DNA from: Mizuhopecten yessoensis
Taxonomy: Eukaryota
Direction: 5' to 3'
DNA length: 64,000 nucleotides
Assembly (NCBI RefSeq): GCF_002113885.1
Contig: NW_018408864.1
Location: 2,037,412 to 2,101,411, forward strand
This document shows positions 7,142 to 47,056 of the stretch, in pieces. The notes under the pieces were generated by a model. That model saw only the letters and a list, made by a program, of their open reading frames with translations. It had not been told where the DNA came from and ran no database searches. How positions within the stretch are numbered: the first letter of the stretch is position 1; each line of letters opens with the position of its first letter. Made by a program: the position numbers and the translations under genes.

Positions 7142-10100
7142 ATGGCATCCAACTGGCAGGGAGATTACTCGGCTCTTCAATGTAAGTGTCTGTAAGTTAG
7201 ACCAGATTGACCAAAAACTTATACATGATGGTAATTAATGATGGATCAGCCGATATAAATAAATCATTCTAAATCATAAAATGATTTACCAATATCAGAG
7301 TTTTATCACATTTATTATAAGGTGACAGTGCCCTGAGTCAACCTGAGAATATCCCTCACAACAAATGGAAGCATGCAAAAACTTTTAAAATGCATTTGTG
7401 ACATCATTATGTACTTTAGGCAATTTTCTAATTAGTCCATCATGATGTTCCCACCTGTTCCTTATGCTTAAATACTTGGTTAGGAACTAAATATCACAAA
7501 GTAAGGTAAATTGAGAATTTTTCTCTTAAAATATAATGAATATAATCCTGATTGACAGTAGGTAACATTTTATTATTTCATCTTTTTCGCCAGTTCCTCA
7601 AATTCTGGTCAACTTCAGTAAAAGTATATCATAGACTATAAGTCATGTTATGAAAGCCTTGATACGAAAATATTCCAACGTCTTTTCATCTTTTTTCAGC
7701 ATAATATATTTTTGTAACATTCATAAATCAGCCTGATTTCTTTAATAAAGACTCACCATCTTAACGTTAAGATTCATTTAAATGACTGGTGTGTTATATT
7801 GACACTTCTTTATAGAAAATGTATATTAATTTCAATGAATATTACCTGTTGTTGGTATTTAATGACAGTTGCTATTGTGGAAGACAAAAAAGATTATGGA
7901 AAGTTCAAGATAGAGAGGAAAGACCTTGGCGATTTTACAAAACTGGCTTTTAGCGTCACTTTTGATGAGGCACAAAGGTGAGTCTGTCCTCTGTCCTGTC
8001 TTTGACCTTTTTTGTCTAGCATGTTTAATTTCCTGACTTTTTATCTAACATACTTTACCTTCATTTACCTGAATGATAAAACTTCGCTGCATCAGATGGT
8101 TATGATGGTGGAATGTTGATGTAGCATTTCATCTGTGCTCTCTCATCCATCCTTAACCATTTATTATTGTCACGTTTTCTCAGGAAAATACTGGAAATTT
8201 TTTCTTATTTTTCTTCATCTATGTAATGCAGGTTCCCCTGTGTCTATGTTTTTATTTTGAGACTGATCTGAAGAACAATATAGTTGCCAAGCAGCCATGA
8301 TAGATTTAGATTTTGACTGATGAAGATTGTTATCGCTATTTCTCTGGAAGTATTTATCAGGCCTGTCTCAAATTTTATTTCTTATGGATACAAAGTGATA
8401 ATTGCTTCAACAATTTATCAAATGTAGGTCACTGTGACCAATATTTACACTTCAGTAACTTTGGATTTAGCATCATTTCTTGTTGTGACTTAGAATTTAC
8501 TCTATTTCCATCAACTGAGGAGGTACATGTTTTAAAAACGTTTTCCATTTAGAATAATCTTTGATTTAAATTAAATTAAAATTGACCCGGTGTATTACTT
8601 ACAGAAATGATAACAATGATCACAGATTTCTGTTAAAACAGCACAGATTAAAGAGTATCACAGACAGGGCATACATTTAACAAGATAAAGGACTGTGTTG
8701 TATACACAATGATAACAAATGTTATTTAAAATATTTAGCCTTTAGCTAGAAGAGACTTAAAAGATTGCAGGGTACATTAAAAATTGCAGTCAAGTTCATG
8801 ATCGTTTTTGTTAAAAGTTCTCTCAGCAAGGTAAGAATTACTTAAGTTTCCTACATTAATTTCACTCTTTGGACAATAAAACTGTAAAAGCATACAGGAC
8901 TAAACTAGTTTAATATTATTGCTTTAATTTCTACTTATGTGTTTTGGTATATATTTTTATCATGAGTTTCGTAGATATTGTTTCTGTCCTCTTTTATCTT
9001 ATTTTATTTTATTTTCTCATGATTTTTACAGCGAGCTGCGAGTTCGGACCAGGAAGGATAATGACTTGTATGGATTTAATTACATCATTAAGGGATTAAT
9101 TAAAACTTCAAACCTTGAAGGGGGGCTAAAGGTGAGTCATTAATCTTTTTATCTCATTCCTGTTTTGGGGAGTAATATATTCCAATAGTACTCCAATAGA
9201 TTCTTAATCTCAAACCTTGGGTACTCACGATGATACTAAACTTTCTTGAGCTCCAAGTTATCTGGGATACTTAATATGGCCAAATTAGTTCTTCTTGTAT
9301 GGCGGAACTGCAAGGGGAAATAAGTTATTTATATGGAGTTTCAGGGTGATACAGTAAATTCTTAATTCATCAGTGAAAACAACTCTAGTTTTACTCTCTA
9401 CGTTGTTTGATATTCATTTTTCATTTCAAAAAAAAAATTAAGATATATGTTTTTAGCAAGTGAGCTTATGCCATGGCGCGGCGTCCGTCGTCCGTCCGTC
9501 CGTCATCCGTCCGTCGTCTGGCGTCAATATTTTATTATTAAACAATTTCTCCTCAATAACCAAACGGCCCAGGAAACTGATATTGAACCTGTAGCATGCT
9601 AGATTGAAAGGCTACCAAGTTTGTTCAATTGAATGACCTTGACCTTCTTTCAAGGTCACAGGGGTCAAATATGTTAAAAACCTGTAATACAACTTCTTCT
9701 GAATAACCAAAATGCATAGGATGATGATGATATTTGGCCAGTAGCATGCTGGAATAAAGGACCACCGAGTTTGTCCAAAGCAAAAAACTATTTAACAACA
9801 TCTTCTGAATAACCAAGAGGTATAAGGTGATGATATTTTGCCAGTAACATGCTCGGATGAAGGACTACCACTTTATTCAAATGAATGACCTTGACATATA
9901 TTCAAGGTCACAGGGGTCAAATATGTTAAAAAAAAACACTTTAAAAGACTTTTTCTTAAAAAGCAAAAGGCCAAGGGTGATGATATTTAGCCATAAACAT
10001 GCTGGGATGAAGGACTACCAAGTGAATGACCTTCGCCCATATTCAAGGTCACAGTGGTCAATATATGTTTAAATCTTTAAATGATTTGTTCTGTATAACC

Positions 10101-10462
10101 AAAAGGTCCAGGGTAATAATATTTTGCAAGAAGCATGCTGGGTTAGAAGACTATCAACTCTGTTCAACCTAATGACCTTGTTCGATATTCAAGGTCACAG
10201 GCGTCAAATGTTTTAATCTTTTAATAGGTTCTTATAAATCAAACGCTGATATTCTGCCCGTAGCTGTATTTTAGTCCACTTTAAAGATTACAAGTGTGAT
10301 ATTGATACCAGGTGAGCGATGCAGGCCCATTGGGCCTCTTGTTCCCTGTTTAATATGATAACTTCATTCAGATGCTATGTTTTCTTTGGTTTACAGAAGG
10401 AGAAGAAGCAGGCATTCCTGCGGATAGAAAAGGATTTGAAAGATGGAAACTTTAATCTTTAG
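7142..10462 (+). CDS. Spliced gene, tandem copy 1: uncharacterised 104-aa protein (possible HSP20/CS-like beta-sandwich)
   Basis: Coding exons 7142-7181, 7869-7977, 9032-9131, 10397-10462. GT-AG introns (gtaagt, gtgagt, gtgagt donors; pyrimidine-rich cag acceptors) in phases 1/2/0 join into one open frame: MASNWQGDYSALQFAIVEDKKDYGKFKIERKDLGDFTKLAFSVTFDEAQSELRVRTRKDNDLYGFNYIIKGLIKTSNLEGGLKKEKKQAFLRIEKDLKDGNFNL*. Good start context (AACATGG); AATAAA at 10468-10473. Exon structure is conserved in two more copies. Confidence 0.85.
9451..10343 (+). mobile_element. HINE-like element in intron 3 of copy 1
   Basis: ttttag...gtgagctt start, (GTCC)n, internal tandem repeats with tgaccttga/aaggtcac, and an end of caggtgagcga plus hairpin aggcccattgggcct plus cttgtt. 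Copy 3 shows the empty T-run site at ~36208-36212. Confidence 0.8.
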
Positions 10463-18208: not shown

Positions 18209-21200
18209 ATGGCATCCAACTGGCAGGGAGATTACTCGGCTCTTCAATGTAAGTGTCTGTAAATTAGACCAGATTGACCAAAAACTTATACTTGATGGTA
18301 ATTAATGATGGATCAGCCGATATAAATAAATCATTCTAAATCATAAAATGATTTACCAATATAAGAGATTTATCACATTTATTATAGGGTGACAGTGCCC
18401 TGAGTCAACCTGAGAATATCCCTCACAGCAAATGGAAGCATGAAAAAACTTTTAAAATGCATTTGTGACATCATTATGTACTTTAGGCAATTTGCCAATT
18501 AGTCCATCAAGATGTCCCCACCTGTTCCTTATGTTTAATTACCTGGTTAGAAACTAAGTATCACAAAGTAAGGTAAAATGAGAAGTTATCTCTTAAAATA
18601 TAATGAATATAATCCTGATTGACAGTAGGGAACATTTTATTATTTTATCTTTTTCGCCAGTTCCTCAAATTCTGGTCAACTTCAGTAAAAGTATATCATA
18701 GACTATTAGTCATGTTACGACACCCTTGATACGAAAATATTCCAACTTCTTTTCATCTTTATTCGGCATTATATATTTATGTAACATTCATAAATCAGCC
18801 TAATTTCTGTAATAAAGACTCGCCATCTTAACGTTAAGATTCATTTAAATGACTGGTGTGTTATATTGACACTTCTTTATAGAAAATGTATATTAATTTC
18901 ACTGAATATTACCTGTTGTTGGTTTTTAATGACAGTTGCTATTGTGGAAGACAAAACGGATTATGGAAAGTTCAAGATAGAGAGGAAAGACCTTGGTGAT
19001 TTTACAAAACTGGCTTTTAGCGTCACTTTTGATGAGGCACAAAGGTGAGTCTGTCCTCTGTCCTGTCTTTGACCTTTTGTCTAGCATGTTTAATTTCCTG
19101 ACTTTTTATCTAACATACTTTACCTTCATTTACCTGAATGATAAAACTTCGCCTCATCAGATGGCTATGATGGTGGAATGTTGATGTAGCATTTCATCTA
19201 TGCTCTCTCATCCATCCTTAAACATTTATTATTGTCACGTTTTCTCAGGGAAATACTGGACATTTTTTTCTTATTTTTCTTCTTCTATGTAATGCAGGTT
19301 TCCCTGTGTCTATGTTTTTATTTTGAGACTGATCTGAAGAACAATATAGTTGCCAAGCAGCCATGATAGATTTAGATTTTGACTGATGAAGATTGTTATC
19401 GCTATTTCTCTGGAAGTACTTATCAGGCCTGTGTCAAATTTTATTTCGTATGGATACACAGTGATAATTGCTTCAACAATTTATGAAATGTAGGTCACTG
19501 TGACCAATATTTACACTTCAGTAACTTTGGATTTAGCATCATTTCTTGGTGTGACTTAGAATTTACTCTATTTCCATCAAATGAGGTGATGCATGTTTTA
19601 AAAACGTTTTCCATTTAGAATAATCTTTGATTTAAATTAAATTAAAATTGACCCGGAGGTTTACTTACAGAAATGATAACAATGATCACAGATTTCTGTT
19701 AAAACAGCACAGATTAAAGAGTATCACAGACAGGGCATACATTTAACAAGATAAAGGACTGTGTTGTATACACAATGATAAAAAATGTTATTTAAAACAT
19801 TCAGCTTTTAGCTAGAAGAGACTTAAAAGATTGCAGGGTACATTAAAAATTGCAGTCAAGTTCGTGATCGTTTTTGTTAAAAGTTTTCCCAGCAAGATAA
19901 AAATTACTTAAGTTTCCTACATTAATTTCACCCTTTGGACAATAAAACTGTAAAAGCATACAGGACTGAACTAGTTTAATATTTTTGCTTTATTTTCTAC
20001 TTGTATGTTTTGGTATTTATTTTTATCATGAGTTTCGTAGATATTGTTTCTGTCCTCTTTTATCTTATTTTATTTCCTTTTCTCATTATTTTTTACAGCG
20101 AGCTGCGAGTTCGGACAAGGAAGGATAATGACTTGTATGGATTTAATTACGTCATTAAAGGATTAATTAAAACTTCAAACCTTGAAGGGGGACTAAAGGT
20201 GAGTCATTAATCTTTTTATCTCATTCCTGTTTTGGGGAGTAATATATTCCAATAGTACTCCAATAGATTCTTAATCTCAAACCTTGGGTACTCACGGTGA
20301 TACTAAACTTTCTTGAGCTCCAAGTTATCTGGGATATTCAATATGGCCAAATTAGTTCTTCTTGTATGGCGGAACTGCAACTGGAAATAAGTTTTTTGTA
20401 TGGAGTTTCAGGGTGATACAATTTCTCCTCAATAACCAAACGGCTCAGGAAACTGATATTGGGCCTGTAGCATGCTGGATTGAAAGGCTACCAAGTTTGT
20501 TTAAATGAATGACCTTGACCTTCTTTCAGGGTCACAGGGGTCAAATATGTTAAAAACCTGTAATACAACGTCTTCTGAATAACCAAAATGCATAGGATGA
20601 TGATGATATTTGGCCAGTGGCATGCTGGAATAAAGGACTACCGAGTTTGTCCAAAGCGAAAAACCATTTAACAACTTCTTCTGGATAACCAAGAGGTATA
20701 AGGTGATGATATTTTGCCAGTAACATGCTCGGTAAAGGACTACCAACTTTGTTCAAATGAATGACCTTGACATATATTCAAGGTCACAGGGGTCAAATAT
20801 GTTAAAAAACTTTAAAAGACTTTTTCTTAATAAGCAAAAGGCCAATGGTGATGATATTTAGCCATTAACATGCTGGGATGATGCACTACCAAGTGAATGA
20901 CCTTCGCCCATATTCAAGGTCACAGTGGTCAAGATATGTTAAAACTTTAAATGATTTGTTCTGTATAACCAAAATGTCCAGGGTAATGATATTTTGCCAG
21001 AAGCATGCTGGGTTGGAAGACTATAAACTCTGTTCAACCTAATGACCTTGTTCGACATTCAAGGTCACAGGCGTCATATGCTTAAATATTTTAACACTGA
21101 AATCTGCCTGTAGCTGTATTTTAGTCCACTTTAAAGATTACAAGTGTGATATTTATACCAGGTGAGCAATGCAGGCCCATTGGGTCTATTGTTCCCTGTT

Positions 21201-21312
21201 TAATATGATAACTTCATTCAGATGCTATGTTTTCTTTGGTTTACAGAAGGAGAAGAAGCAGGCATTCCTGCGGATAGAAAAGGATTTGAAAGATGGAAAC
21301 TTTAAACTTTAG
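18209..21312 (+). CDS. Spliced gene, tandem copy 2: 104-aa paralog
   Basis: Exons 18209-18248, 18936-19044, 20099-20198, 21247-21312, with the same splice sites and phases as copy 1. Three amino-acid differences from copy 1 (K>T, I>V, N>K) and 4 synonymous codon changes. Confidence 0.85.
20421..21193 (+). mobile_element. 5'-deleted HINE-like element in intron 3 of copy 2
   Basis: Same element as 9451-10343, with a deletion removing its left end and the adjacent intron. Confidence 0.75.
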
Positions 21313-24300
21313 TGAAAAATAAAACACATCATCATCAATGCCTTTAGAATGGTTCAGTACAGCATTTATTGTAGTCAGGATTTCAGAGAGGATCAAAGAC
21401 AGTTTTTACTTTAAGAGACAATCCTGGAATATTCTAACACAGCATTTAGTTTATAGTTCACATTTATAAACTGTACATTATACATAATAACGATGTGATT
21501 TCTTGTTGCTAGACATTAACACTGGGTTACCTCCCCTCGTTGGATAACATATATGAACATAATTATAGACATCAACATAGGATTACATTGTCTCGTTTAA
21601 TAATACCATGCAGGTATAATATTGGATTATCTCCTCTTGTTGGATAATGTTTTAAGTTGATAATGAGACTTTTAGGAAAATCGTACTGTTTATTGAATTC
21701 ATTTCAGTGTCTTAATTGGGTAACAACAGACTGAATTGTTTGTTATAGCCCAATAGTATGTGTTGCAATGCTAGTCTTTACATCATGATGACCAGAAGAA
21801 GAGAGCAGTTACAAATTATACTGCAAAAGTCACAAGGACTAATTTTATCATATACATAAACACCGGGTCATCTCCCCTCATTAGATACTACTATATAGGC
21901 ATTAACACTGGATTAAATTAATTAAGGATATGTCTTGTATAAAAAAAAAATGATAATGAGACTTAAACAAAAATCAGTTTATTTGAGTCATTTCTTTGGA
22001 AAGAAAGAGCATGTACAAATTATGCTGCAAAACACACTATTAGTGCTAAGAGTATTAAGTAAACCTGAATTAAAGTTGTATTTACCTTGAAACAAAATGA
22101 ACCTTTATTTTTTTATCAATAAACTTTTATCTTCATTCCTGTATACTTGTATGTGATGTCTTGTCTACAATGAGTTATGGCCATGAAACAGTGCTAGAAA
22201 TATAGATCGATTTTTTTTTTTGAAATAATTACTTCTTTTGGATATATTTGATGTTCAGCATGGTTGTTTTTCTGTGAAATCTAGACCAAAACATTATAGG
22301 TAAAATGATGTACATGTACTGAAATGACTTTTAGTTTAGAAAGTTTACAGTGCATTATTAAAAGATCAAATGTTTTGGTTTTAGTGTGTTCTTAGATGAT
22401 GAAAACATTGCTTTACTCTAACTTAATTTCCAAAATGTTATTTCACCATTCTTCTTCCATATATAGTTTATCTTTTGAATTAGAAAACTTTCTAGCTACG
22501 ATGGTTGAAAAAAACTCGGCAAATTTATAACATTTGTGGATTTATGTGTTTTCTCGTACACGAAAATTCCTTGTTTTTAATACAGATAAATAGTTTTACG
22601 TCCGATAGTAGTTTGTAAGACTGCTGACTAGCTACGATATTGCATTAAAATGAAACAATGAAATTGTTCCAGAAGCAGAACTAAAATAAGTTTGTGGCAG
22701 AATTTAATACCTATGCCTGTATTGATATTGTAGTAGAGTTTTAATGTGGTCAGCCAAGCAGAGATGACATATAGAAACACTTGGTTTATATTGACGGAAT
22801 CCTTCGATTTTCAAACAAAACTACACATCAATAACCGCTCAAATTCAATCTCAATCAAAATTAGAAAATTTCATGCACATCAATAACCGGTAAATTCAAT
22901 CTCAATCAAAATTAGAAAATCAACATCAGCTTCTACTACTGTTATCGATCCTGGTCGTAGATGATATAATGTCTTTGTTGTGTACTGTTACTGCTGAAAT
23001 GTTCATGGTTATATTTGTTTAATGTTACTCTATATCAAACATTACATTCATGTAAGTATATTATTTTCTTCTTCTAAACTTTACTGTACTGTTGTATAGA
23101 CAGAAATCACTTCCATTTACAATTTCTTTTATTGGGATGAATGTCATTCACATATTTTTTTTAATTTACATTAATATTTTGTACTTAATTTAAGTAAGGG
23201 ATCATTTAATTCCTTGTGTTTTAAAGTTGTCAGGTTTTGTATGGATATAAAAGACCTTATTTGGTATTGCAATGTCTGCTAGCCAACAGAAAATGTTGTT
23301 TGAAGTCTTTGTTGAAAATCATGTAGATTTATACTTTATATACTTATATCTGAAATATTGTTTTTTTCATAATTCACTTTAGGTTTGGCAACAACACTCT
23401 TTATTCAATGTATTTTGTTTTAGTTTTTATTTGGTGTGATATTTGTAGTGTAGTTTGTGGTTTGTGTATTGCATTTGTTAGAGGATGTTATGCAGATATA
23501 GTTAATAAAAATTTGAATAAGACTTCCACATTTTTGTTTACACCTTCCAGGCTGGACATCTTTGAAACATGCTAATATTTTCATTGCGACTATGATATCA
23601 ATCTTACAACGTACCTGACGTACTCATATTAATAAGCGGGGGATGGTGGGGGGGGGGGGGNCATACAGATCCCAAATCCGTTCCCAAACTTAACCATTTG
23701 TTAATATTGCGACAAAAAAAACTAAGGAAGTTTTCATAACTCAAGCAGTGCTTACCAATGAGAATTAAGGTGAAAAATCTTCTTCAGTTCGTAAATCTGT
23801 GGCTTCACCTGGTAAGTAATACTGTGACTATACCAAGGTATATGACAAGGTGAGTTGACATGCTCCTGTGTCTATATTGTAGCAAGTTATTGAGACTAAA
23901 GAAGATATGTTGATAAGAGGCGTTACTCCTCCTCTTATAATGTCTCCCATGATACGTGTCGACTGCTGACGGACTTACTTAAAACAGGGTTTTCAGGGAT
24001 GGTTAAGGACAATGTCAATACCTTTTCTTTTATAACCCTACAACATTTTTGGAATACTGCCAGAGTTGGGGCCCTTGATTAAATATCCTTACAAAAAGTG
24101 TCCTCATGCAAGAGGGCTGTCATTCATTCATCCTGTCATTCAGTCGTTTAATTATTCATTCAATTGTTTACTTATTCTTTCATTGATTTCTTTTCATAAC
24201 ATCCTTCCTTTTACATTTATTCCTTGTTTACATTCATTCGTACATTTATTATTTCCATTAATTATCTCTTTGTTTACACTCATTCACTCATTTCATCTAT

Positions 24301-24734
24301 GTATTCATACATTTTGAAGTTTTCTCCTTCATAATATATATATGATATAATAATATATATAATATAATAATAGTAATACTGTGACTATATATACTAAGGT
24401 ATATGACAAATATTACTATATGTCTTCTATGATACGTGTCGACTGCTGACGGACTTATTTAAAACAGGGCTTTTAAATAGTCATATAATATAATATATAG
24501 AGATACTATATAATACTTAGTAAATGTACTGAAGCATGACACATATGAGGCAGGAAGGAGGGGAACCCCCTGATTCGCCAACTAGACACCGGATATATCA
24601 CAAATGAGCATTCGAGGAGAGCAAACATTTCAAACTAATAAGGGGAGAGGACTTTTATTTAAAAAAAACAACATCTAAGTAATATTTAAAATAATAATGA
24701 ATTAAGGTCGTTATTATTAAACATTGTTCGAATT

Positions 24735-25310
24735 GACCCCATTTATTTTGGAAGGATAATAGAAATTTACTTTTCATCGCAATAAACTTCTCTACTTTCA
24801 TTGTATGTGAAAAATAATCTTACACATTTCAAAATTTGGAATGTAGTCTTTAATGCGGCTACAGTATATGTGATGTTTTATTATTACCAGAAAATGGTGT
24901 AATAATAGTCCAATCTTTGAATTTCCAAAAAGAATATCTATATCTTTAAAATCAATATAGGGCTGTCTATCATCATGCTCAGTATACCAAACATTAAAAT
25001 CATCCAATAATCTCTGTACATAATAGCATTGAGTAAAAATTGGTTCCAATGTTTCTGTTTCTCTGTTACAGAGTGTACATAATTGATTTGTTGTTAATTT
25101 CATTTTTACTTACTCTTTATTAGTTGGTAGAATCCTATGATTGATTTTGTATTGGAAAGTCTGTAATTTTGTTTCCATTTTACGGTTAAATGCATTCATA
25201 TAAATATCTTGCCAGTTGAAATCCTCATCCATCTCAAAAACTGATTTCCATTTTTCTTGGCTATGTTTGGGCATTATTATGACATTTGCAACAAACTATC
25301 TATAGATAAT
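24735..25310 (-). mobile_element. L1/Tx1-type LINE ORF2 remnant (unit 3 copy)
   Basis: ORF 24798-25103 is homologous to the other two copies. Confidence 0.85.
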
Positions 25311-27127
25311 AATGTTTCATCAGCGTACAAATGTATATATGCAAACTACATTAATTGACACTAAGTGGTATGTCATTGACATACATGATGCACATCAGAA
25401 GACCAGGTTTCCTGGGGTATACTTACTGTAAGCTGTTTCTCGCTCAAACTTGGTTTTAATTTTACAACCAAAAATCTGAAAAGGCAAAAACAAAACTGAA
25501 GAGAAACTGGAAGCACATTAATGAGTTTACTTGTCAAACCGAAACAAGTCCAGATTTATTTTGAAAGCAGTACATTGTAACTTTAAGCCCTGAATTGCCT
25601 TCATTTGTCATTTATTGATAAAAGCCTTCCAGTTTGCATTCACATTGCCTATGAATATCATCTGAAAGTAATATGATCATAGGTTTCACTGTAGCCGGAC
25701 CAGATCAATGCTTAAATGTATACTTGTGATCTTATACAAACAAGGTAAAAACTAAAAATAGAAAGTGTATTTTAAAATAAAAAAAAACATAAAAACTTTT
25801 TACTCCGGATACGACCGGTCACTGCGATGCCTATTCTTTTCCTTTTACCAGGGCGACACAATTCTGCTCAAGAGTCAAATAAACAATTACAGGCAAAGTC
25901 TCTGAACAATATATTTACGTTGGCCAGTGCTATACATAAAACTGACTTTTATTCAATGCGTAGAACTACAAACTGCAAAAAGTAATATCTGCTGAAGCAA
26001 TGACATCAAATGCTATTATTTGTTATCAGAATGAACGAGAGAAATGGGAAGTTCCATCTGTTTGAAGCTTCTTTAGAAGTTTAATTTAAACGAATATATT
26101 TCTCATGAGCAAGACAGGGACATAGCGTAGAATTATTTGAATATTTTCCAACGAATAAATTAAACGTAAAAATAACAACGGACATCTATATTTTTATTGT
26201 AAAGATATATATTCAGTGGAGGGTGAATGTATTTTTTCGTTCGTATCGATTTGAGTAATTTGTTATGATTGATTAAATAAATTACCATAGAACAACCGAT
26301 TTTAGCCTTCAAATCGAAACAGTACCCCAGGAAATTTTCAGTTCACATATTTTAATTATCATTTTATTAGTAAATGTGTGTGTCAAACCATTACTGCAAT
26401 GAGAGGGGCAGATCAGCCCTTAGTGTTACCAATAATACTCAATATTTTCATTCATTGAGACGAAATAGCTCGGAAGTCGTAGTCGTTCGTAACTATGCAA
26501 CATCAGAACATGTTGGCTGGCTTATCGAAATCTAGCGTAATCTGTGTATGTATATAACAGTTATTATAAATCAGTTGTTTCGCTTGACACGTTTTGTTTG
26601 TAATGTAGCGGAACTGGACTGGACCGATCGTCGGAAGCAGAAGACGCTTACCCTTCCGGAACACATGTTCTTATTATCATTGTACAATGAACTTCCCCAG
26701 GGGTCTACAAACAACACTTTCTTTGATTATATTCTGCCCTGATTCGATAGATTTCGAGTTCGAAAAACGGTCTTGTGCACACTGCGATAGTACGTATTCT
26801 TTCTTAAACAAGGACAATGGACAGGAGATGTACAATGGTAACTAGAGTACTTTTTTTCCAAAATATTATACAACATACAAACAAATTCCTTTTCTCTGAT
26901 TTTCGCTGGCGCATATTGTGCCTCCGCCTTCCCTCCTTAAATAATATTAAACTATTAATATTAAAATTGGACTGTATCAAGTGTGACCCCATCACGATGT
27001 CTCCCGTCAAAACATGCAATGGGATTTTTTGAAACGTTTACAAAATGTAATACATGACGATTGTTGATGTTTCAATACTCCTGTTTATTTCTGAACGGTA
27101 TTATGTCTTAAAATACGGTTCTTTTAA

Positions 27128-27985: not shown

Positions 27986-29941
27986 TTATTACCCAATGGG
28001 TACGTTTTCCTTGGCGTCGTAGAAACGTCAGTTTCCGCCGCCATATTTGTTTTGGAAAACTAATCTGTTCGATACCCCTCGCTATTTATCTATCAACCAT
28101 GATATTTCGATTCGCTGGCAAACTTTTGCCAGCACGCCTCTGAGAGTTGTAATAATACAATTGGAAACTATCAATTTCATTTTCATTGTACATACCGTAC
28201 GTAGCTACATGTATGTATGTGTTTTCTTTCTACAGAATTACATTTCTGCAATCCGGATAAAGATAGCATACCGTTTCATCTTTTAGTTTGTAATTTTGTT
28301 TTCCGGTTTCGAGTTGTTTATCGTCGGCGAATGACCCGTGTGGCGGTGCATGCTTTCGGTTCGACATTTTGACCAGGGACTTCTACTTCACAGGTTTACA
28401 AGGTTTAAACTACACACGTTTGCATGCATGAAGCAATTATTTTAGTGATATTCAATGACAAGTGTTCCATTTGTTTTTATAAGGGAGTAAAGACAGGTCC
28501 TGCACAACGCAACTACTATTAATATTGAGCTTGTTAGACTTTCAGCCGTTGGTTACGTTATTTGATATAACGCATCCAACGGATGAAAGTCTCACAAGAT
28601 CGATATTGATAGTAGTTGCGTGCCCCATGTGGTCCTGTTAATGAGTTATATCCACTGGCAGGTACTTGGTACATAAAAATAAATATAAAAACATATTTGG
28701 TGTGTATACATAGGATGCTTACTATGTTAATAACTTACAATATATATGCGAAATATTTTCTAAGGAGTAGACTAATAATGTTACATTTTCAGTGGCATAA
28801 ACACTATATATGTAGTACTAATATTAAAACCCGCCTCCTCTGCCCCGCCGCCGGCCGCATAAAAAAGGTCCGGTAGTTAAAAGCTACGTTATCGCAGCTA
28901 ATGATATTGGTGTACCGTCCAAGGCCTGTTACATTGTCCTTGGCATTATCAGCAGTTGATTTTGTATACTTAACGGAGGACCTCAGTGAGTCACTGCATA
29001 CTTTATTATCTGTAGGATACGACAGATTGTGTCAATTCAGATACTAAAATGATATGGTTGCCGTTTAACTTCAAGCTAGACTTCCTGTTTAACTCAACCT
29101 GTGTAGCGGAAGCTGGGAGACTATTAGTACCTATATTTAAATACATGACCTACACACAATATATAAAAGGCTTGTTATCAAAAGCTACGTGATCACAGCG
29201 AGGGGACTATGACTGGATCCATAGTGGAAGCTCACTACTTTCTTCCTGTTAAAGATAGTAGTTTTGGCCCTCTCTGTGGTTGCTGCACGTTAGATACTGT
29301 TTTGGAGCCTGATCAAATATAAAAAGGAAGTCGCAGTATTGTACATTTTAAAAATGATTAAGTTTCTCAATTACATCCTGCTACAGGGAACTTACTTCCT
29401 TTTAGCACCATTGTAAGAACGGCCGACTGGATAGCTGGGAGGGTGAGGTGGGGGCTGATTTGTTTCCTGTTGGAAACACTACTTATTTTCTGTTTAGTTA
29501 TTAAACATTTAATCGATTTACATAATCTCAAATGAGAAAAAAGTACGGATTCAGTATGTCATGGCGCATCGTCCGTCATCTGTCTATCCATCAACTTTTC
29601 CTTTAACACGATACTAGTCCTGAACGGCTAAGTGGTTTTTAACTCAATTTGGTTTGGAGCATCTTTGGGCCAAGGGCAGTATTTTTTTTATAAACGCGGT
29701 TGTGGTCCCCCTGGGGGCAGAGGGGTGGGGCCAATAGGAGAAATAGAGGTAAACATTTAAAATCATTTTTCTACCATAAAGATTAAGGAATTTCATCCAA
29801 ATTTGGTCTGGACCATCATGAGGTCAAAGGGCACTCTAATTTGTATAAACGGTGGGTGCCGAGCTACTATTTTATTTGCAATTGACAACAAAAGTAATAT
29901 CATACAATACAAACATTCATTTACATTATACACAATATACA

Positions 29942-32566
29942 ATGTGTTACTGTCGTAATGCTGACATATAGACACATGTTACTGTCGTAATGCTAACATA
30001 TAGACACATGTTACTGTCGTAATGCTGACATATAGACACATGTTACTGCCGTATAGCTGACATATAGACATGTGTTACTGTCGTAATGCTGACATATAGA
30101 TACATGCTACTGTCGTAATGCTGACATATAGACAGTAACATATGTATATATGTCAGAATTACGGCAGTGACATGTGTCTATATGTCAGCATTACGACATT
30201 AACACATGTCTATATGTCAGCTATATGGCAGTAACATGTGTCTATATGTCAGTTATACGGCAGTAACACATGTCTATATGTTACTGCCGTATAGCTGACA
30301 TATAGACACATGTCTATATGTCAGCATTACGTCAGTAACATATGTCTATATGTCAGCATTACGTTAGTAACATATGTCTATATGTCAGCATTACGACAGA
30401 AAAATATGTCTATATGTTAGCATTACGACAGCAACATGTGTCTATATGTTAGCATTACTACAGTAACATGTGTCTATATGTCAGCATTAGGACAGTAACA
30501 TATGTCTATATGTCAGCATTACGTCAGTAACATATGTCTATATGTCAGCATTACGTTAGTAACATATGTCTATATGTCAGCATTACGTCAGTAACATATG
30601 TCTATATGTCAGCATTACGATAGTAACACATGTCTGTATGTTAGCTATACGACAGTAACATGTGTCTATATGTCCGCATTACGACAGTAACATGTGTCTA
30701 AATGTTAGCATTACGACAGTAACATGTGTCTAAATGTTAGCATTACGACAGTAACATGTGTCTAAATGTTAGCATTACGACAGTAACATGTGTCTATCTA
30801 TTAGCATTACGACAGTAACACATGTCTATATGTCGGCATTACGACAGTAACATATGTCTATATATTAGCATTACGACAGTAACATGTGTCTAAATGTTAG
30901 CATTACGACAGTAACATATGTCTATATTTCAGCATTACGACAGTAACACATGTCTATCTGTCAGCATTACGACAGTAACATATGCCTATATGTTAGCATT
31001 ACGACAGTAACACATGTCTGTATGTTAGCTATACGACAGTAACATGTGTCTATACGTCAGCTATACGGCAGTAACACATGTCTATTTGTTAGCATTACGA
31101 CAGTAACATGTGTCTATGTCTGTATGTTAACTATACGACAGTAACATGTGTCTATATGTCCGCATTACGACAGTAACATGTGTCTAAATGTTAGCATTAC
31201 GACAGTAACATATGTCTATATATTAGCATTACGACAGTAACATGTGTCTAAATGTTAGCATTACGACAGTAACATGTGTCTATACGTCAGCTATACGGCA
31301 GTAACACATGTCTATATGTTACTGCCGTATAGCTGACATATAGACATGTGTTAATGTCGTAATGCTGACATATAGACACGTGTTACTGTCGTAATGCTGA
31401 CATATCGACATGTGTTACTGTCGTAATGCTGAAATATAGACATATGTTACTGTCGTAATGATAACATATAGACATATGTTACTGTCGTAATACTAACATA
31501 TAGACATATGTTACTGTCGTACTGCTAACATATAGACATATGTTACTGTAGTAATGCTGACATATAGACACATGTTGCTGTCGTAATGCTGACATATAGA
31601 CAAATGTTACTGTCGTAATGCTAACATATAGGCACTTGTTACTGTCGTAATGCTGACATATGGACATGTGTTACTGACGTAATGCTGACATATAGACACA
31701 TGCTACTATCGTAATGCTGACATATAGACATATGGTACTGTCGTAATGCTGACATATAGATACATGCTACTGTCGTAATGCTGACATATAGATACATGCT
31801 ACTGTCGTAATGCTGACATATAGATACATGCTACTGTCGTAATGCTGACATATAGACATTTGTTACTGTCGTAATGCTAACATATAGACAGGTGTTACTG
31901 TCGTAATGCTGACATATCGACATGTGTTACTGTCGTAATGCTGAGATATAGACATGTGTTACTGTCGTAATTCTGACATATAGACATGTGTTACTGTAGT
32001 AATGCTGACATATAGACACATGTTGCTGTCGTAATGCTGACATATAGACATGTTTTACTGTCGTAATGCTGACATATAGTCATGTGTTACTCTCGTAATG
32101 CTAACATATAGACACATGTTACAGTCGTAATGCTGACATATAGACATGCGTTACTGTCGTAATGCTGACATATAGACAGTAACATATGTATATATGTCAG
32201 AATTACGGCAGTGACATGTGTCTATATGTCAGCATTACTACAGTAACATATGTCTATATGTTAGTATTACGACAGTAACATATGTCTATATTTCAGCATT
32301 ACGACAGTAACACATGTCTGTATGTTAGCTATACGACAGTAACATGTGTCTATACGTCAGCTATACGGCAGTAACACATGTCTATATGTTACTGCCGTAT
32401 AGCTGACATATAGACACATGTTACTGTCGTAATGCTAACATATAGACATGTGTTACTGCCGTATAGCTGACATATAGACACATGTTACTGTCGTATAGTT
32501 AACATACAGACATATGTAACTGTCGTAATGCTAACATATAGACATGTGTTACTGTCGTAATGCTAA
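29942..32566. repeat. 32-bp minisatellite with repeated orientation switches
   Basis: Unit tgttactgtcgtaatgctgacatatagacaca, about 80 units; strand switches near 30132, 30279, 30311, 31318, 32176 and 32388. Confidence 0.95.
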
Positions 32567-33343
32567 GGATTCCTCTCATGCACCTCTTATTATCATTATC
32601 TGATATACTATACCCGCAATATTATATATGATGCACTACAGTATCTATATATTACAAGCTGTATCCTACAGTCTTGGTAGCTTGCCAAACGGTGAACGAG
32701 TTACAAAGTCCCATGTTAAAAATCTCCTTCTATCCCATGAAACAGTACAGCACAATAAATACATGGTATGCACACCACAACGATATGTATAGATATTTCA
32801 TGCGTAGCCTAGTTACCTGATGAACCCAGAAGCACAAGACAAAGCACTGGCAACTCTGACTAACAGTTTGCTTTTCGTACGGGTCACACAGGCAATACTT
32901 TATTAATTCTACCACAACACAATCTCATTTCAAATTTTTCCTTAGAGAATCCTCCTAACAAGACAACATAAAAACAAAAGCAAAATCCATACATTCTTTC
33001 TAAGGAAAAGGGAGGAAAGACTGAGTAACATCGTTTGATGTGTAGGTAATGTTTGCCAACTGATTTAAAGAAGGTGGTATTTACCAAAATGACCATGAAC
33101 AATCCTATCGTTTCAGTGTCCCACACAGTTGATATTAAGTGTTGTTGGCAGTAATACAGAGCAGAGCAGACAATTCTAAAGGTGATTACACACAGAATTA
33201 TAGCCTGACACATCTGCCCTTCTTGAAGTTGGTTACTAATTCATAATTGATCCACCTTTTTTTGTTTTGTTTAAAATAGGTAAGCTATTTCTAAAGGAAG
33301 AGTCTTCTACAGCAGTGAGCCAGGTACAACAGGTTTGAAAAAC

Positions 33344-36341
33344 ATGGCATCCAGCTGCGAGGAAGAATACTCGGCTCTTTACCGTAAGTGTCTGGAAATT
33401 AGACCAGATTGACCATACACTTATACTTGATGGTAATTAATGATGGATCAGCCTATATGAATAAATCATTTTAAGTAATCAAATGAGTTATCGATATTAG
33501 ATATTTATCACATCTATTATAGGGTGACAGTGCCCTGGGTCAACCTGGGAATATCACTCACAACAAATGGAAGCATGAAAAACCTTTTAAAATGCATTTG
33601 TGACATCATTATGTACTTTATGCAATTTGCTAATTAGTCCATCAAGATGTCCCCACCTGTTCCTTATGTTTAATTACTTGGTTAGGAACTAAGTATCACA
33701 AAGTAAGTTAAAATGAGAAATTTTCACTTAAAATATAATGAATATAATCCTGATTGACAGTAGGTAAAATTTTATTATTTTACCTTTTTCGCCAGATCCT
33801 CAAATTCTGGTCAACTTCAGTAAAAGTATATCATAGACTATTAGTCATGTTTTAAAAACCTTGATACGAAAATATTCCAACTTCTTTTCATCTTCATTCA
33901 GTATAATATTTGTATGTAACATACATAAATCAGTCTAATTTCTGTAATAAAGACTCACCATCTTAACGTTAAGATTCCTTTAACTGACTGGTGTGTTATG
34001 TTAATAATTCTTTATAAAAAATACATCTGTAATGGTTTAACCAAGATAAATTATTCAAAATGTATATTAATTTCACTGAATATTACCTGTTGTTGGTTTT
34101 TAATGACAGTTGGTATTGTGGATGACGAAGATAATTACGTAAAGTTCAAGATAGATAGGAAAGATCTTGGTGATTTTAGAAAGCTGGATTTTAGCGTCAC
34201 TTTTGATGAGGCACAAAGGTGAGTCTGTCCTCTGTCCTGTCTTTGACCTTTTTGTCTAGCATGTTTAATTTCCTGACTTTTTATCATACTTTACCTTCAT
34301 TTACCTGAATGATAAAACTTTGCCTCATCAGATGGCAATGATGGTGGAATGTTGATGTAGTATTTCATCTTTGCTCTCTCATCCATTCTTAAGCATTTCT
34401 TATTGTCACTATTTCTCAAGGAAACACTGGACAAATATTTCTTTTTTTCTCTATGTAATGTAGATTCCCCTTTGTCTATGTTTTTATTTTGAGACTGATC
34501 TGAAGAACAAAATAGCTGCCAAGCGGCAATGATAGATTTTGACTGATGAAGATTGTTATCGCTATTTTTCTGGATCGAGCCATCTGACTCATAGGTTGAA
34601 TATCAAACAATTACATCATGTAATACCTGTACAAGATATTTTGATACAAATTTAAATTGATGAAGTGGAGAGTGAGCTTACAAATTACACAAGTAGTTTT
34701 CCATGTCAGACATTGATTTCTCTACGTTTACTCATAGCGCAATATAAATACATTCCTATATTGCATAATTCTTTTACATTATTAGTACTCAATAATTTCG
34801 TTAACTTATAAACATTAGGACTTCTGTGATAGAATCGCTTGATATATTTACGTCTCAGGTCTTGATGTAATGGACATTTTAGGATGAAATTCATTTTCTA
34901 TATCACCAGAAGCACAGCGAGAACAATGATGATATATTCTGTCGAACACCATTGTTCCGTCTACCTACTTCAATATTTAAATCATGAGACGACAATCTTA
35001 AACATGTAATAAGGCGTTTGTACTTAGATTCTATAGATTTACATAAGTAAAATTGAAGACAAACATTATCAAAAAGGTGCTGGTATAAATAACCTTTAGG
35101 TGACCTTGCTAAATTTGGTATCATCTTCTGTTTACAATTATCTAAAATTCTTTGTTCTATATTCTTAAAAGCAATGTTCTTGTCAGGTCTGTCTCAAACT
35201 CAATTTTGTATTGATACACAGTGAGAATTGCTTCAACAATTTATTAAATGTAGGTCACTGTGACCAATATTTACACTTCAGTAACTTTGGATTTAGCATC
35301 ATTTCTTGGTGTGACTTAGAATTTACTCTATTTCCATCAAATGAGGTGGTGCATATATGTTTTTAAAATATTTTCAAGTTAGAATAAACTTTGTTTTGAA
35401 TTGAAATAAAACAGACCCGGAGGTTTACTTACAGAAATGATAACAATGATCCCAGATTTCTGTTAAAACAGCACAGATTTAAGAGTATCACAGACAGGGC
35501 ATATATTTAACAAGATAAATGACTGTGTAGCATACACAATGAAAAAAATGTTTTAAAAAAATCTTAAGTTTCTTACATTAACTTCACTCTTTGGACAATA
35601 AAACTGTAAAAGCATACATGAGACAGAACGTTTTTGTGAGCTTCCTGGAGATCACCATCAGGACTGAACTCGTTTAATATTTTTCTTTAATTATTACTTG
35701 TGTGTTTTGGTATATATTTTTATCATGAGTTTCGTAGATATTGTTTGTGTCCTCTTTTATCTTATTTCATTTCCTTTTCTCATTTGTTTTACAGACAGCT
35801 GTGGGTTCGGACCAGGAAGGACAATGTCTTGTATCAATGTAATTACCTCATTAAGGGATTAATTAAAACTTCAAACCTTGAAGGGGGACTAAAGGCGAGT
35901 CGCTAATCTTTTTATCTCATTCCTGTTTTTGGGAGTAATAGATTCCAATAGTATTCCAATAGATTCTTAATCTCCAAACTTGGGTTCTCACAGTGATACT
36001 ATACTTTCTTGAGCTCCATCGGGGATACTTAATATGACCAAATTAGTTCTTCTTGTATGGCGAAACAGCAAGTGGAAATATATTTTGATAAGGAGTTTCA
36101 GGGTCATGCAGTAGTTTCTTAATTCGTCAGTGAACGCAACTCTAGTTTTACTTTCTACATACACATGTTTGATATTCATATTTCATTTCCAAAATTTGAG
36201 ATATAGGTTTTTCCCTGTTCAACATGATAACATCATTCAGATGCAATGGTTTTCTTTGGTTTACAGAAGAAGAAGGATTATGCATCCCTGCGGATAGAAA
36301 AGGATTTGAAAAATGGAAAATTTAATCTTAATGACAAATAA
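33344..36341 (+). CDS. Spliced gene, tandem copy 3: diverged 107-aa paralog with GC-AG third intron
   Basis: Exons 33344-33383, 34110-34218, 35795-35894, 36267-36341 give MASSCEEEYSALYLGIVDDEDNYVKFKIDRKDLGDFRKLDFSVTFDEAQRQLWVRTRKDNVLYQCNYLIKGLIKTSNLEGGLKKKKDYASLRIEKDLKNGKFNLNDK*. Frame intact; the intron-3 donor is AAG|gcgagt; the stop codon is shifted by 3 codons. Confidence 0.75.
34575..35180 (-). mobile_element. 5'-truncated CR1/L2-group LINE in intron 2 of copy 3
   Basis: Minus-strand peptides ITCLRLSSHDLNIEVGR and FILKCPLHQDLRRKYIKRFY are typical LINE ORF2 C-terminal motifs; absent from the same intron in copies 1/2. Confidence 0.8.
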
Positions 36342-36842
36342 AACACATCATCATCAATGCTCTTTAGAATGGTTGAGTACAGCTTTTGTTGTAATCAAGA
36401 TTTCAGAGAAGATCAAAGACAGCTTTTTAAGAGACAATCCTGGAATATTCTAACACAGCATTTAGTTTATAGTTCACATTTATAAAACTGTACATTATAC
36501 ATAATAACGATGTGATCTCTTGTTGCTAGACATTAACACTGGATAACCTCCACTTGTTGGATAACATATATTAACATAATTATAGACATCAACATAGATT
36601 ACCTTGGCTCGTTTAAGAATACCTTTTAGGTATAATACTGGAATATCTCCCCTTGTTGGAGATGACCATAATATAACCTACATGGAGATGACCATAATAT
36701 AACCTACAATGTACATGTATTTTAATTGAAGGAAATCTCTTGTAAAAAAGTTGATAACGAGACTTTTAAAAACATCGTACTGTGTATTGAATTCATTTCA
36801 CTGTCTTAACTGGGTAACAACAGACAATAAACTGAATTGTTT

Positions 36843-37681
36843 TGTGATGTCTAATAATGTTTAATAAATAAAGGACGAAAAAAGGCGACGAAGACTCCCT
36901 TTATAGTTTCCATCTTGTAGAGAAATTTATTTCACACACCTCCAGAGAGGGTGAAAAACTACAAAGAAAAACGAATAAAACACTCATAAGATTACTGGAA
37001 ATTAACTAGGTCAAACAATGGTAATTATCTCAAACCGACAAAAATGTTGGAGCTAAACAATAGCCACTTTATCTTTTAGTTTAGGCTTCTTTTATATGAA
37101 CATTGTGCCATCAAAATTACATACAGAATAAATTTACTATTGCTCCATACCACTTGATAATAAATTAGAAAATACCCTGTGCTAACCAGATCCTTCAAGA
37201 CACAACACGTCACATACCAGACACAATTATGGTTAGTTGCACGATATTCTCATTACTATTATTCATATTAATACAGTTGGTAACTATAATGAAGTACAAA
37301 ATAATAAAATATACTATTTGACTAGGTTATTGTGTCGAGCAAACAAGCAGACGACACCGATTGAAATATGGCGGGACCCACCCAAGCCCAACAAAACCAT
37401 CGGATTTACCAAACGTACAGAATGAGCATATGCATATTACATAAAAACCAGCATCAAAGATACATTATGCAATAAATCATACAGTTATTATAAACACTTA
37501 CTCCTTAGGGAGGCCCGCATTTAGCCAAACCAAAAGCAGCGTGACTGTGACGCTTCCACATGGTAGACATAGGAACTTGGAAAACAAAACTAATATGTGG
37601 AATAGAGGCGGGTACTAATTTCCGGACAATAAATTCCGAACTTATAGTCCGGACTATAAATTCTGGACCAAGACCGTCACA
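36843..37681. mobile_element. Solo LTR (Gypsy-like, 4-bp TSD)
   Basis: TGTGATGTCT...AGACCGTCACA imperfect inverted termini (TG..CA), GTTT duplicated on both sides, and the empty site aattGTTTgttata present in units 1 and 2. Confidence 0.8.
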
Positions 37682-44600: not shown

Positions 44601-45157
44601 GGACAACTAGTCCCTCCAACAATAATTCTGTCCGGACAACTAGTCCCTCCGACACGTATTCTATCCGGACAACTAGTCCCTCCGACACTTATTCTATACG
44701 GAAAACTAGTCCCTCCGACACTAATTATATCCGGACAACTAGTCCCTCCGACACTAATTTTATCCGGACAACTAGTCCCTCCGACACTAATTCTATCCGG
44801 ACAACTAGTCCCTCCGACACTAATTCTATACGGACAACTAGTCTCTCGGACACTAATTCTATCCGGACAACTAGTCCCTCCAACAATATTTCTAACCGGA
44901 CAACTAGTCTTTCCGACACGTATTCTATCCGGACAACTAGTCCCTCCGACACTTATTCTATACGGACAACTAGTCCCTCCGACACTAATTATATCCGGGC
45001 AACTAGTCCCTCCGACACTAATTCTATCCGGACAACTAGTCCCTCCGACCCAAAGTCTATACGGATAACTAGTCTCTCCGACACTAATTCTATCCGGACA
45101 TCTAGTCCCTCCGACACTTATTCTACCCGGACAACTAGTCCCTCCGACACTAACTTT
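41610..45157. repeat. 33-bp minisatellite (~105 units)
   Basis: Unit tccgacactaattctatccggacaactagtccc; source of the S/T-rich ORFs in the track. Confidence 0.95.
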
Positions 45158-45994
45158 ATGCATGCAGTTAAACATATGTTCTTGTGACGTTTAACATTTA
45201 TGGATCAGACTCCATTATTTAAGCTAATCGTGTTTTCCTTTGACACAGGTACAACATAATGAATCACGTGAATCAATAAATGGACCTTTTCCGAATTCCG
45301 TGATATTTTATGAAGGTTCGCACTATTTTATTAAACTGCGTTTGTATTTAAGGGTTATTGATCCCGTTATTATCTATGGAGTTACAACCTGTGTACAAAA
45401 TATAGTCCTTTGTGTACATTGAGAATTACGAGGTGCATTTGTGTATAGCGGGTAAGCATAAAACACTTTATTATAGAAATAGACTAAACACAACTACAGT
45501 CTACACCTGTATAACAGTAAAAGGTGCTGTCTATTACACAACACAGTCACATTTCAAAAAGAACCACAAACTGCTAATTCTTTGACACACTTGTTTCGTC
45601 TGAGAAAGAGTGGACTACGTTCATATTTCTTTATTCGGAGCATTTTTCTGTCGGATAACCACTTTAAAAAAATCCACTGTAACTAAAAGAATGCTTTAAG
45701 GTAGGTACTCGGGCGTCAAAGGTACGCAAATATCTGTCTTCTTGTAATTTTAAACAGAACCTTTATTTCTGCTCTTCAAGCATTGCAATCGTGTCCAGCT
45801 AGCTAGTCCATGTATTCTGATTTCCTACAAACGCCATAGAAACCCCCTAGTCTGCAGAGGGTTCCTCGCTAGTCGCCGGACATGATACTGGTACAAGCAG
45901 TGGGATACTATGGAACGCCATAGCTGTCAAATAATATAATAATGGAAGCTTACAATACAATGGAAACCAAATCATATAATGATAAATAAAATCA

Positions 45995-46359: not shown

Positions 46360-46640
46360 CTATATATTGATGATATCAAATAATGTATTGATGAAATCAT
46401 ATAATGATAAAATCAAATCATATATTGGTGAAACCAAATCATATAATGATGATATCAAATAATATAATGATAAAATCGAATAATGTAATGATGACATCAT
46501 ATATGATAATGATAAAATCAAATCACATAATGATGAAATCAAATAATATCATGATGACATCAATTAATATAATGATAAAATCGAATAATATAATGATAAA
46601 ATCAAATCATATATTGATGCAATCATACAACATAATGAAA
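46360..46640. repeat. AT-rich 21-bp minisatellite
   Basis: Degenerate units of ataatgataaaatcaaatcat; one unit also lies at ~45965, left of the palindromic element. Confidence 0.85.
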
Positions 46641-47056
46641 ATATCAATTCTTATAGTATTGTTATGCCATATGTGACAGCTATTGCGTTCCATAGGATAC
46701 AGTAGCCATGTTCTTTCTTCGAACCTGGAAGTTGGCGTGTGTGGGGATGTATTAGTCTCGTCTAACAAAAACATGCAATGGGGTGCAATGTGCTTATCCC
46801 CCCCNNNNNNNNNNNNNNNNNNNNNNNNNNNNNNNNNNNNNNNNNNNNNNNNNNNNNNNNNNNNNNNNNNNNNNNNNNNNNNNNNNNNNNCCCCCCTCCG
46901 TTCCTTGCCTCTAGATCTTACTAGATAGCATAAAGTGGGGGACAGCAGGTGTGTTGCATTGAAGTACGTGTAAAATAATGTACAGTACATTTCTCACAAG
47001 GTACATGTAAGGTCAAATTAATTAATGTGAACTGCGCTTATGCATGAGTATTTAAT

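What the first reader, a model, noticed from the sequence alone, without database searches (positions are those of the whole stretch)
33344..36341. Excess of amino-acid-changing substitutions between copy 3 and copies 1/2
Manual count, copy 1 vs copy 3: 41 nucleotide differences in 104 codons, 29 amino-acid replacements, and only 6 purely synonymous codon changes. Exons 1 and 4 have 8 differences each and no silent ones. Coding divergence (~13%) is at or above that in a sample of intron 1 (~10% by eye), yet the frame is preserved. Changes cluster (NWQGD>SCEEE, KKD>EDN, GF>QC, EKKQ>KKDY), while KGLIKTSNLEGGLK and FSVTFDEAQ are invariant. Inference: diversifying selection, as in immune or recognition proteins; relaxed constraint is the alternative.
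Basis: partly seen in the sequence, partly recalled or inferred. Interest (0 to 1): 0.7.

Follow-up and report, generated by a model that had tools for sequence, protein, structure and literature searches.

The report
Fast-evolving scallop HSP20-fold gene copy
The last of six side-by-side copies of a small unnamed scallop gene, whose protein is predicted to fold like a small heat-shock or co-chaperone domain, is spliced into RNA and has changed amino acids about two to three times faster than the non-coding DNA around it, which likely reflects a burst of positive selection for an altered binding partner.

Summary
Pairwise they do not show selection (dN/dS 1.4-1.7, p 0.15-0.37). The array has six copies (A-F), and copy 3 is F, the last. 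Three-way comparison is stronger. Non-coding DNA gives near-equal branches (F 4.9%, A 4.8%, middle copies 3.7% of 3,422 sites). F's coding branch has 29-30 replacement changes in 245 sites (12%) and 3-4 silent in 67 (5-6%). Joint ML gives omega_F 2.8-2.9 (p about 1e-5). Codon-only tests give 1.8-2.3 against 0.35-0.43 background, not significant against 1 (p 0.10-0.31). Under the strictest polarisation with other scallops, p is 0.035-0.076. F is spliced in three studies and keeps its frame and hydrophobic core. It was minor or unseen in most runs laid and also makes truncated splice forms. The protein has no Pfam match, was found only in scallops plus one unnamed record, and is predicted to have an HSP20-like (alpha-crystallin/CS) sandwich. 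Nothing points to immunity, and clustering is not significant. Verdict: likely positive selection after duplication (about 0.6); relaxation remains the main rival.

The parts
33280..33383 (+).
   Evidence: RNA loose ends before 33278 show an upstream non-coding exon
34110..34218 (+). Copy F coding exon 2 (109 nt); skipped in one minor form, which would give 35 aa
35795..35894 (+). Copy F coding exon 3 (100 nt), ending in a GC donor (GT in the other five copies)
   Evidence: spliced joint seen in X2 and X4
35839..35844 (+). F-only cryptic GT donor created by the Phe65>Cys change; joining it to exon 4 gives an immediate stop (64 aa product)
   Evidence: joint 35838>36267 in X2 (depth 21 vs 43 normal) and X4 (12.7 vs 14.9); translation length
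36267..36341 (+). Copy F coding exon 4 to the stop (107 aa in all; annotated LOC110465329, P0008)
36839..37681 (+). 843-nt insertion in the 3' region of F, flanked by a 4-nt direct repeat; absent from the other copies and from an F-type RNA contig; likely a polymorphic insertion rather than an intron
28351..28652 (+). F's counterpart of the upstream non-coding exon region, 78% like copy D's, with a deletion and an altered donor; its use was not tested
7142..10462 (+).
18209..21312 (+).
23662..27057 (+). Front part of the F repeat unit, 94-95% identical to the D and E units, whereas the rest of the F unit is about 78-90% identical; sign of recent unequal exchange or conversion at the E/F boundary

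Best explanation
Copy F is the spliced, frame-intact last member of a six-copy tandem array of a small scallop gene predicted to encode a stand-alone HSP20-like (alpha-crystallin/CS) domain, and it likely went through a burst of positive selection after duplication that would have changed its binding partner or client while keeping the fold. Shown: array anatomy, splicing, an F-branch replacement rate 2-3 times the local non-coding rate, a silent rate equal to it, and purifying selection on the sister copies. Predicted: the fold. Inferred: positive selection, a cytosolic chaperone or co-chaperone-like binding role, and a partner shift. The middle copies B-E are 94-96% alike through recent duplication or exchange, while A and F sit at the array ends, about 10% apart in non-coding DNA. 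F may now be under weaker constraint, since it also makes truncated splice forms.
For: Three-way A / middle / F count on 3,422 non-coding sites: F-specific 4.9%, A 4.8%, middle 3.7%. Coding, same method: F branch 29-30 nonsynonymous of 245 sites and 3-4 synonymous of 67; A 3 and 1; middle 3 and 2; codons 8 and 50 (three states) left out. Fisher p 1e-5 to 5e-5 against non-coding. Resampling non-coding blocks of exon size gives p=0.0009 for 33 changes. Counting each multi-hit codon once: 24/245, p=0.003. Joint ML: omega_F 2.79-2.92 with each of B, C, D and E as middle copy, p 5e-6 to 1e-5, profile interval about 1.8 to 4.2 or more; other branches 0-0.7. Codon-only branch model: omega_F 1.8-2.3 versus 0.35-0.43, p 0.014-0.026. 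Outgroup relative-rate tests favour F in 8 of 8 comparisons, 6 of 8 with p<0.05. Of 52 sites invariant in three other-scallop proteins, F has 12 own changes and A/D have 1. Constraint persists: 3 of 27 family-hydrophobic sites changed versus 24 of 77 others, p=0.03, all three to hydrophobic residues; no indel where 2.5 were expected (P=0.09); no stop where one would arise in 50-76% of neutral runs. F-type GT..AG splice joints in X2, X4 and X7, three studies. AlphaFold models at pLDDT 86 and 81 match Sgt1 CS and sHSP domains at Z 9.3-9.7, rmsd 2.6-3.1, 85-89 aligned.
Against: On codons alone omega_F is not significantly above 1 (p 0.10-0.31; N versus S on the F branch one-sided p 0.046 or 0.12). 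The strong p-values assume that alignable non-coding DNA is neutral and not homogenised, yet conversion is visible in this array (mosaic copy B, 95%-identical front of the F unit). Six F-branch changes have the F state in an outgroup and may belong to the A-E side. Dropping them gives 24/245, p=0.003; strict polarisation gives 20/245, p=0.035; removing exon 1 as well gives 17/215, p=0.076. F changed 6 of 28 family-invariant residues, no fewer than chance. Core sparing is weaker by simulation (p=0.13; p=0.06 for no polar change). F has a GC donor, a self-made cryptic donor giving a 64-aa product in two studies, and exon-2 skipping in one. In raw reads of X24 only 1 of 36 and 3 of 51 laid reads carried the F letter at two diagnostic sites, and X3 showed only A-E-type joints. 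No function has been tested.
Confidence: 0.6

Rival explanations
1. Relaxed constraint: F is a redundant end-of-array copy drifting at omega near 1 and decaying. The apparent excess comes from chance, from constrained or converted non-coding reference DNA, and from changes that really belong to the A-E side.
For: Codon-only tests cannot reject omega_F=1. Invariant sites are hit at the chance rate, 6 of 28. Weak GC donor, truncating cryptic donor, exon skipping, altered upstream exon donor, and low share in the raw RNA runs. Strict polarisation leaves p 0.035-0.076.
Against: The silent rate on F (3-4/67) equals the non-coding rate while the replacement rate is 2.4 times it. None of 13 non-overlapping 245-site non-coding blocks exceeds 18 F-specific changes, against 29-30. 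A-versus-middle silent divergence (3-6/67) is near their non-coding divergence (8.5%), so recent exon-wide conversion between them is not indicated. Frame and core are kept.
Confidence: 0.25
2. Older duplicate held apart under gene conversion: F's exons split earlier than its flanks suggest, conversion homogenised the non-coding DNA, and selection removed conversions that overwrote the exons (the opsin-type peak of divergence). This is selection to keep a difference, not a fast burst.
For: Conversion or unequal exchange is evident: copy B joins an F-type codon 4-8 block to an A-type intron 1 start, and 23662-27057 is 94-95% like D/E. The model is described in PMC3924837 (passages read).
Against: It predicts raised silent divergence inside F's exons; the observed 3-4 of 67 is not raised (about 8 expected at 12%; small numbers). 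The non-coding F branch is 2.6-7.7% across five regions, with no rise confined to the gene.
Confidence: 0.1
3. Host-pathogen arms race on an immune or recognition protein, as the first reader suggested (one possible driver of the selection).
For: Replacement excess; N-terminal block shared between B and F; plant alpha-crystallin-domain proteins include ones that inhibit virus movement (PMC4814718, abstract start in listing).
Against: The other five copies are under purifying selection. No F coding variant was listed in the covered parts of X2, X4 or X15, though contigs drop rare variants. No signal stretch and no known recognition fold. Changes are not significantly clustered.
Confidence: 0.05

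Closest known systems
CS domain / p23-like co-chaperones (Sgt1 CS, p23/Sba1, Shq1, NudC)
   Same: Predicted seven-strand sandwich aligns over model residues 10-107 to Sgt1 CS (Z 9.7, rmsd 2.6-2.7, 88-89 aligned) and p23 (Z 8.8); tight turn at 59-60 between strands 4 and 5, with no long dimer loop.
   Different: 7-16% identity and no Pfam CS hit; no TPR, CHORD, SGS or acidic tail; found only in scallops plus one unnamed record; Hsp90 binding untested.
Small heat-shock proteins (HSP20 / alpha-crystallin domain)
   Same: Equally good fold match (M. marinum sHSP Z 9.7, rmsd 3.1, 87 aligned; Sulfolobus Hsp20.1 best Foldseek row, E 1.4e-3); Atlas leads for P0012 are HSP20 clusters at 0.88, lead level only; C-terminal F-x-L/F faintly recalls the IxI motif (motif recalled).
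   Different: Only about 12 residues precede the domain, so there is almost no N-terminal region; no G-V-L motif before the last strand (recalled consensus); no PF00011 hit; oligomer and holdase activity untested.
Asymmetric evolution / neofunctionalisation of one tandem duplicate under gene conversion (e.g. red/green opsins)
   Same: One copy carries an exon-confined excess of replacements in an array with signs of conversion (PMC3924837, passages).
   Different: Here silent sites match the flanks, which favours a rate burst over an older protected island; the function is unknown.

Membership tests
HSP20-like chaperone fold (ACD/CS superfamily) | Compact antiparallel beta-sandwich of ACD/CS topology | tested here: met
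   Predicted models. The top 34 entries are HSP20-like (sHSP, CS, p23 or NudC type, or unannotated), best Z 9.7, first other fold at Z 6.7. The F model used the same alignment, so one search is not independent.
HSP20-like chaperone fold (ACD/CS superfamily) | Sequence-profile match to PF00011 or PF04969 | tested here: not met
   No Pfam family for P0001 at E<=5 or for P0007, P0008, P0009 and P0012 at E<=1
small heat-shock proteins | ACD flanked by an N-terminal region and a C-terminal extension (PMC9346038, PMC6197667, passages) | tested here: inconclusive
   About 12 residues before and 0-12 after the sandwich; much shorter than typical
small heat-shock proteins | C-terminal IxI/V motif (recalled) | tested here: inconclusive
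   F-x-L or F-x-F in the named scallop proteins, absent in P0012
small heat-shock proteins | Dimer or oligomer formation and ATP-independent holdase activity; stress induction | not testable with these tools
   needs biochemistry and labelled expression data
p23/CS co-chaperones | Binding to Hsp90 | not tested
   no job run
gene under positive selection | dN/dS significantly above 1 on codon data alone | tested here: not met
   omega_F 1.8-2.3, p 0.10-0.31
gene under positive selection | Replacement rate above the local neutral (non-coding) rate on the same branch | tested here: met
   12% versus 4.9%, p 1e-5 to 1e-3; strict versions p 0.035-0.076
gene under positive selection | Expressed with an intact frame | tested here: met
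gene under positive selection | Excess of fixed over polymorphic replacements (McDonald-Kreitman) | not testable with these tools
   too few variants are visible in contigs
immune recognition proteins under diversifying selection | Variable sites forming one exposed surface; high allelic diversity | tested here: inconclusive
   No coordinates were available; by strand position the changes lie on both sheets, the arm and loops; clustering p about 0.09

The most novel reading that the evidence does not exclude
An undescribed, scallop-restricted family of minimal stand-alone HSP20-like domain proteins, invisible to Pfam, has expanded to six copies. Its last copy was driven by positive selection (omega near 3) to a new partner or client, and an F-type N-terminal block was swapped into copy B, giving a natural series for studying how a chaperone-fold module changes specificity.
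Probability: 0.4. Interest if true: 0.55.

Novelty: new variant of a known kind. Interest (0 to 1): 0.4.

Why it matters
The evolutionary process (one duplicate accelerating) is well known. What is new is the object: a family of about 100-residue proteins, unnamed in all records seen, that is predicted to be a bare HSP20-like domain between sHSPs and CS co-chaperones. One copy shows a replacement excess against an unusually clean internal control. If the family is a stress chaperone or Hsp90 co-factor, it would be missing from Pfam-based heat-shock gene inventories of a farmed scallop. The A-E versus F pair would then be a small, easily expressed test of how such a domain changes partners. It does not overturn a principle or open a long-standing question.

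Tried and rejected
Pairwise dN/dS as proof of selection: rejected, not significant in any of the five pairs with F. Clustering of changes: not significant. Multinucleotide mutation as the whole cause (concern from 10.1101/165969, listing and abstract start only): neighbouring differences are not in excess and the signal survives one event per codon. F as an assembly artefact: rejected; the listed contigs of an independent run (X15) cover exons 2 and 4 and intron stretches with 0-1 other letters each, and F-type transcripts exist. P0013 and P0014 were dropped as repeat-inflated chance hits. PDB sequence searches gave nothing useful; the Atlas search with P0001 gave only unnamed clusters at 0.88. 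Homodimer prediction: no answer, score 0.00, alignment not used; no evidence either way. No run was on record as an RNA holder; the lays decided expression. Polymorphism test: too few variants listed in contigs. Further paralogues elsewhere in G000: none among scored candidates. Literature: no paper holds the six M. yessoensis gene ids tried or the one Pecten id; no paper holds all four terms on scallop sHSP tandem duplication and positive selection; searches listed nothing on this family. Supplements were not searched and may list these ids in expression tables. Earlier scan notes: none found.

Full report
Anatomy. The window holds three units of a tandem array of about 11 kb. Searches of G000 with exon 3 DNA and exon 2 protein each returned six places on one contig, so three more copies lie upstream. 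These equal annotated 'uncharacterized' proteins of Mizuhopecten yessoensis (label). B-E units are 94-96% alike; A and F, at the two ends, are more distant. Assembly gaps separate several units, so the exact number of middle copies could be off.

Checking the counts. About 79% of sites are nonsynonymous, so 34 of 41 is close to neutral expectation: omega 1.36-1.65 by counting (p 0.15-0.31) and 1.5 by ML (p 0.34-0.37). Clustering is not significant. Five of the 29 replacements (codons 4-8) are shared with copy B, whose intron 1 starts like copy A's, so B is a mosaic. In X24, 63 reads lie on F's exon 1 up to 33379 and continue as A-E type, which fits a real B-type transcript (inference).

Which lineage changed. 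Relatives were found in Ylistrum (P0007), Pecten (P0009, P0010) and one unnamed record (P0012, 48% identical to A). At 52 sites invariant in the three named outgroups, F differs at 14 and A/D at 3, two of these shared, so 12 versus 1. At 28 sites invariant in all four, F differs at 6 (W5, D8, Q13, A15, G64, F65) and A/D at none. Relative-rate counts lean to F in 8 of 8 comparisons, 6 of 8 at p<0.05. A codon branch model gives omega 1.8-2.3 on F versus 0.35-0.43 elsewhere (p 0.014-0.026), but does not reject omega_F=1 (p 0.10-0.31). Acceleration of F is therefore shown; codons alone cannot tell selection from relaxation.

A larger neutral yardstick. Projecting A and B-E on F over flanks and introns gave 3,422 three-way sites. 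F-specific, A-specific and middle-specific changes are 4.9%, 4.8% and 3.7%; an independent alignment of introns and 3' DNA gave 4.7% for F on 1,860 sites. In the coding sequence the F branch has 33 changes: 30 replacement and 3 silent by direct count, or 29 and 4 once codon 53 is routed around a stop. Two three-state codons were left out. That is 12% of 245 and 4.5-6% of 67 sites: silent sites match the yardstick and replacement sites are 2.4 times it (p 1e-5 to 5e-5). Resampling exon-sized non-coding blocks, which allows for patchy rates, gives p=0.0009. A joint ML model gives omega_F 2.79-2.92, interval about 1.8 to 4.2 or more; it assumes independent sites and equal mutation rates, so its p-values are optimistic. 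Conservative versions shrink the signal: changes whose F state is in no outgroup, 24/245, p=0.003; strictly F-derived, 20/245, p=0.035; without exon 1, 17/215, p=0.076 (the strict lists were drawn by hand). The main caveat is conversion or constraint in the non-coding reference. Against it, A-versus-middle silent divergence (3-6 of 67) resembles their non-coding divergence, and the three non-coding branches are near equal. On the other hand, A and the middle copies share derived residues at 21, 37 and 40, so some change or exchange took place on their side too.

Is F alive? F-type splice joints were seen in contigs of X2, X4 and X7 (three studies): all three introns in X2 and X4, intron 2 in X7. 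X3 showed only A-E-type joints. Raw reads in X19, X22 and X24 were almost all A-E type; in X24, 1 of 36 and 3 of 51 reads carried the F letter at two sites. Contig depths cannot rank copies, but F looks sample-dependent and often minor. F's exon 3 donor is GC, and the F65C change creates a GT donor that is used in X2 and X4 and yields a 64-aa product; X2 also skips exon 2. Yet F has no stop or indel where neutral drift would often have made one (2.5 indels expected, P=0.09), and only 3 of 27 family-hydrophobic sites changed, all to hydrophobic residues, versus 24 of 77 others (p=0.03; simulation p 0.06-0.13).

What the protein is. No Pfam or PDB sequence match was found. AlphaFold2 on a 7-row alignment gives a seven-strand sandwich at pLDDT 86 for A and 81 for F. 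The best structural matches are tied between CS domains (Sgt1, Z 9.7, rmsd 2.6, 89 aligned) and small heat-shock proteins (Z 9.7, rmsd 3.1, 87 aligned), followed by p23 and Shq1. Such ACD-type domains serve as chaperones, Hsp90 co-chaperones or interaction modules (PMC6197667, passages). The protein is the bare domain, lacking the long N-terminal region of sHSPs (PMC9346038, passages) and the tails of p23 or Sgt1. I file it in the HSP20-like fold but in neither family. By strand position, F's changes lie on the N-terminal arm (4-8), strands 1, 2 and 7 (13-18, 24, 29, 88, 90), strands 4-5 and the residue before strand 3 (40, 51, 53, 61, 64, 65, 68) and loops. They do not obviously form one patch (inference; no coordinates were available).

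Mechanism and verdict. Most likely an ancestral gene, found in one or two records per other scallop species, expanded locally. The middle copies kept the old protein under purifying selection and recent exchange. The last copy fixed about 20-27 mostly non-core replacements faster than neutral DNA while keeping its core, as expected if selection retuned what the domain binds. Leaky splicing suggests weak present constraint or a side cost of F65C. I give this 0.6, relaxation 0.25, an older conversion-protected duplicate 0.1 and an immune arms race 0.05. The process is of a known kind; the family appears undescribed in the searches run (supplements not searched). Interest 0.4.

Noticed in passing
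G000:C5537 upstream of the window (L012-L014), copy B: Mosaic copy: F-type codons 4-8, A-type intron 1 start, middle-type body, and a deletion over part of the upstream non-coding exon.
   Followed up: partly
window 13370-13915 (-) and matching places in other units: Fragment of a LINE-type element (Pfam zf-RVT, E 1e-7) carried inside the tandem unit.
   Followed up: partly
window 29934-32566: 32-nt-period tandem repeat that matches itself on both strands, inserted only in the F unit between the upstream exon region and exon 1.
   Followed up: no
window 40950-41205: RNA coverage with a shared loose end at 41205 in X2 and X19 (a 1,534-nt contig lies here on the - strand): probably the end of a neighbouring spliced transcript.
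   Followed up: no
window 41543-45190: 33-nt tandem repeat with strong C>G skew and long open frames (786 codons, Thr/Ser/Pro/Asp-rich); minisatellite or mucin-like coding, untested.
   Followed up: no
window 52287-52925 (+) and 57344-57778 (+): Open frames of 212 and 144 codons without a Pfam match.
   Followed up: partly
codon 105 of copies B-E (e.g. window 10460-10462): The four middle copies share a stop three codons earlier than A and F; the longer tail also occurs in Ylistrum.
   Followed up: yes
window 50357-50986, 55321-56593, 62561-63181, 46362-46655: Further tandem repeats (21, 82, about 30 and about 20 nt periods by self-match offsets).
   Followed up: no
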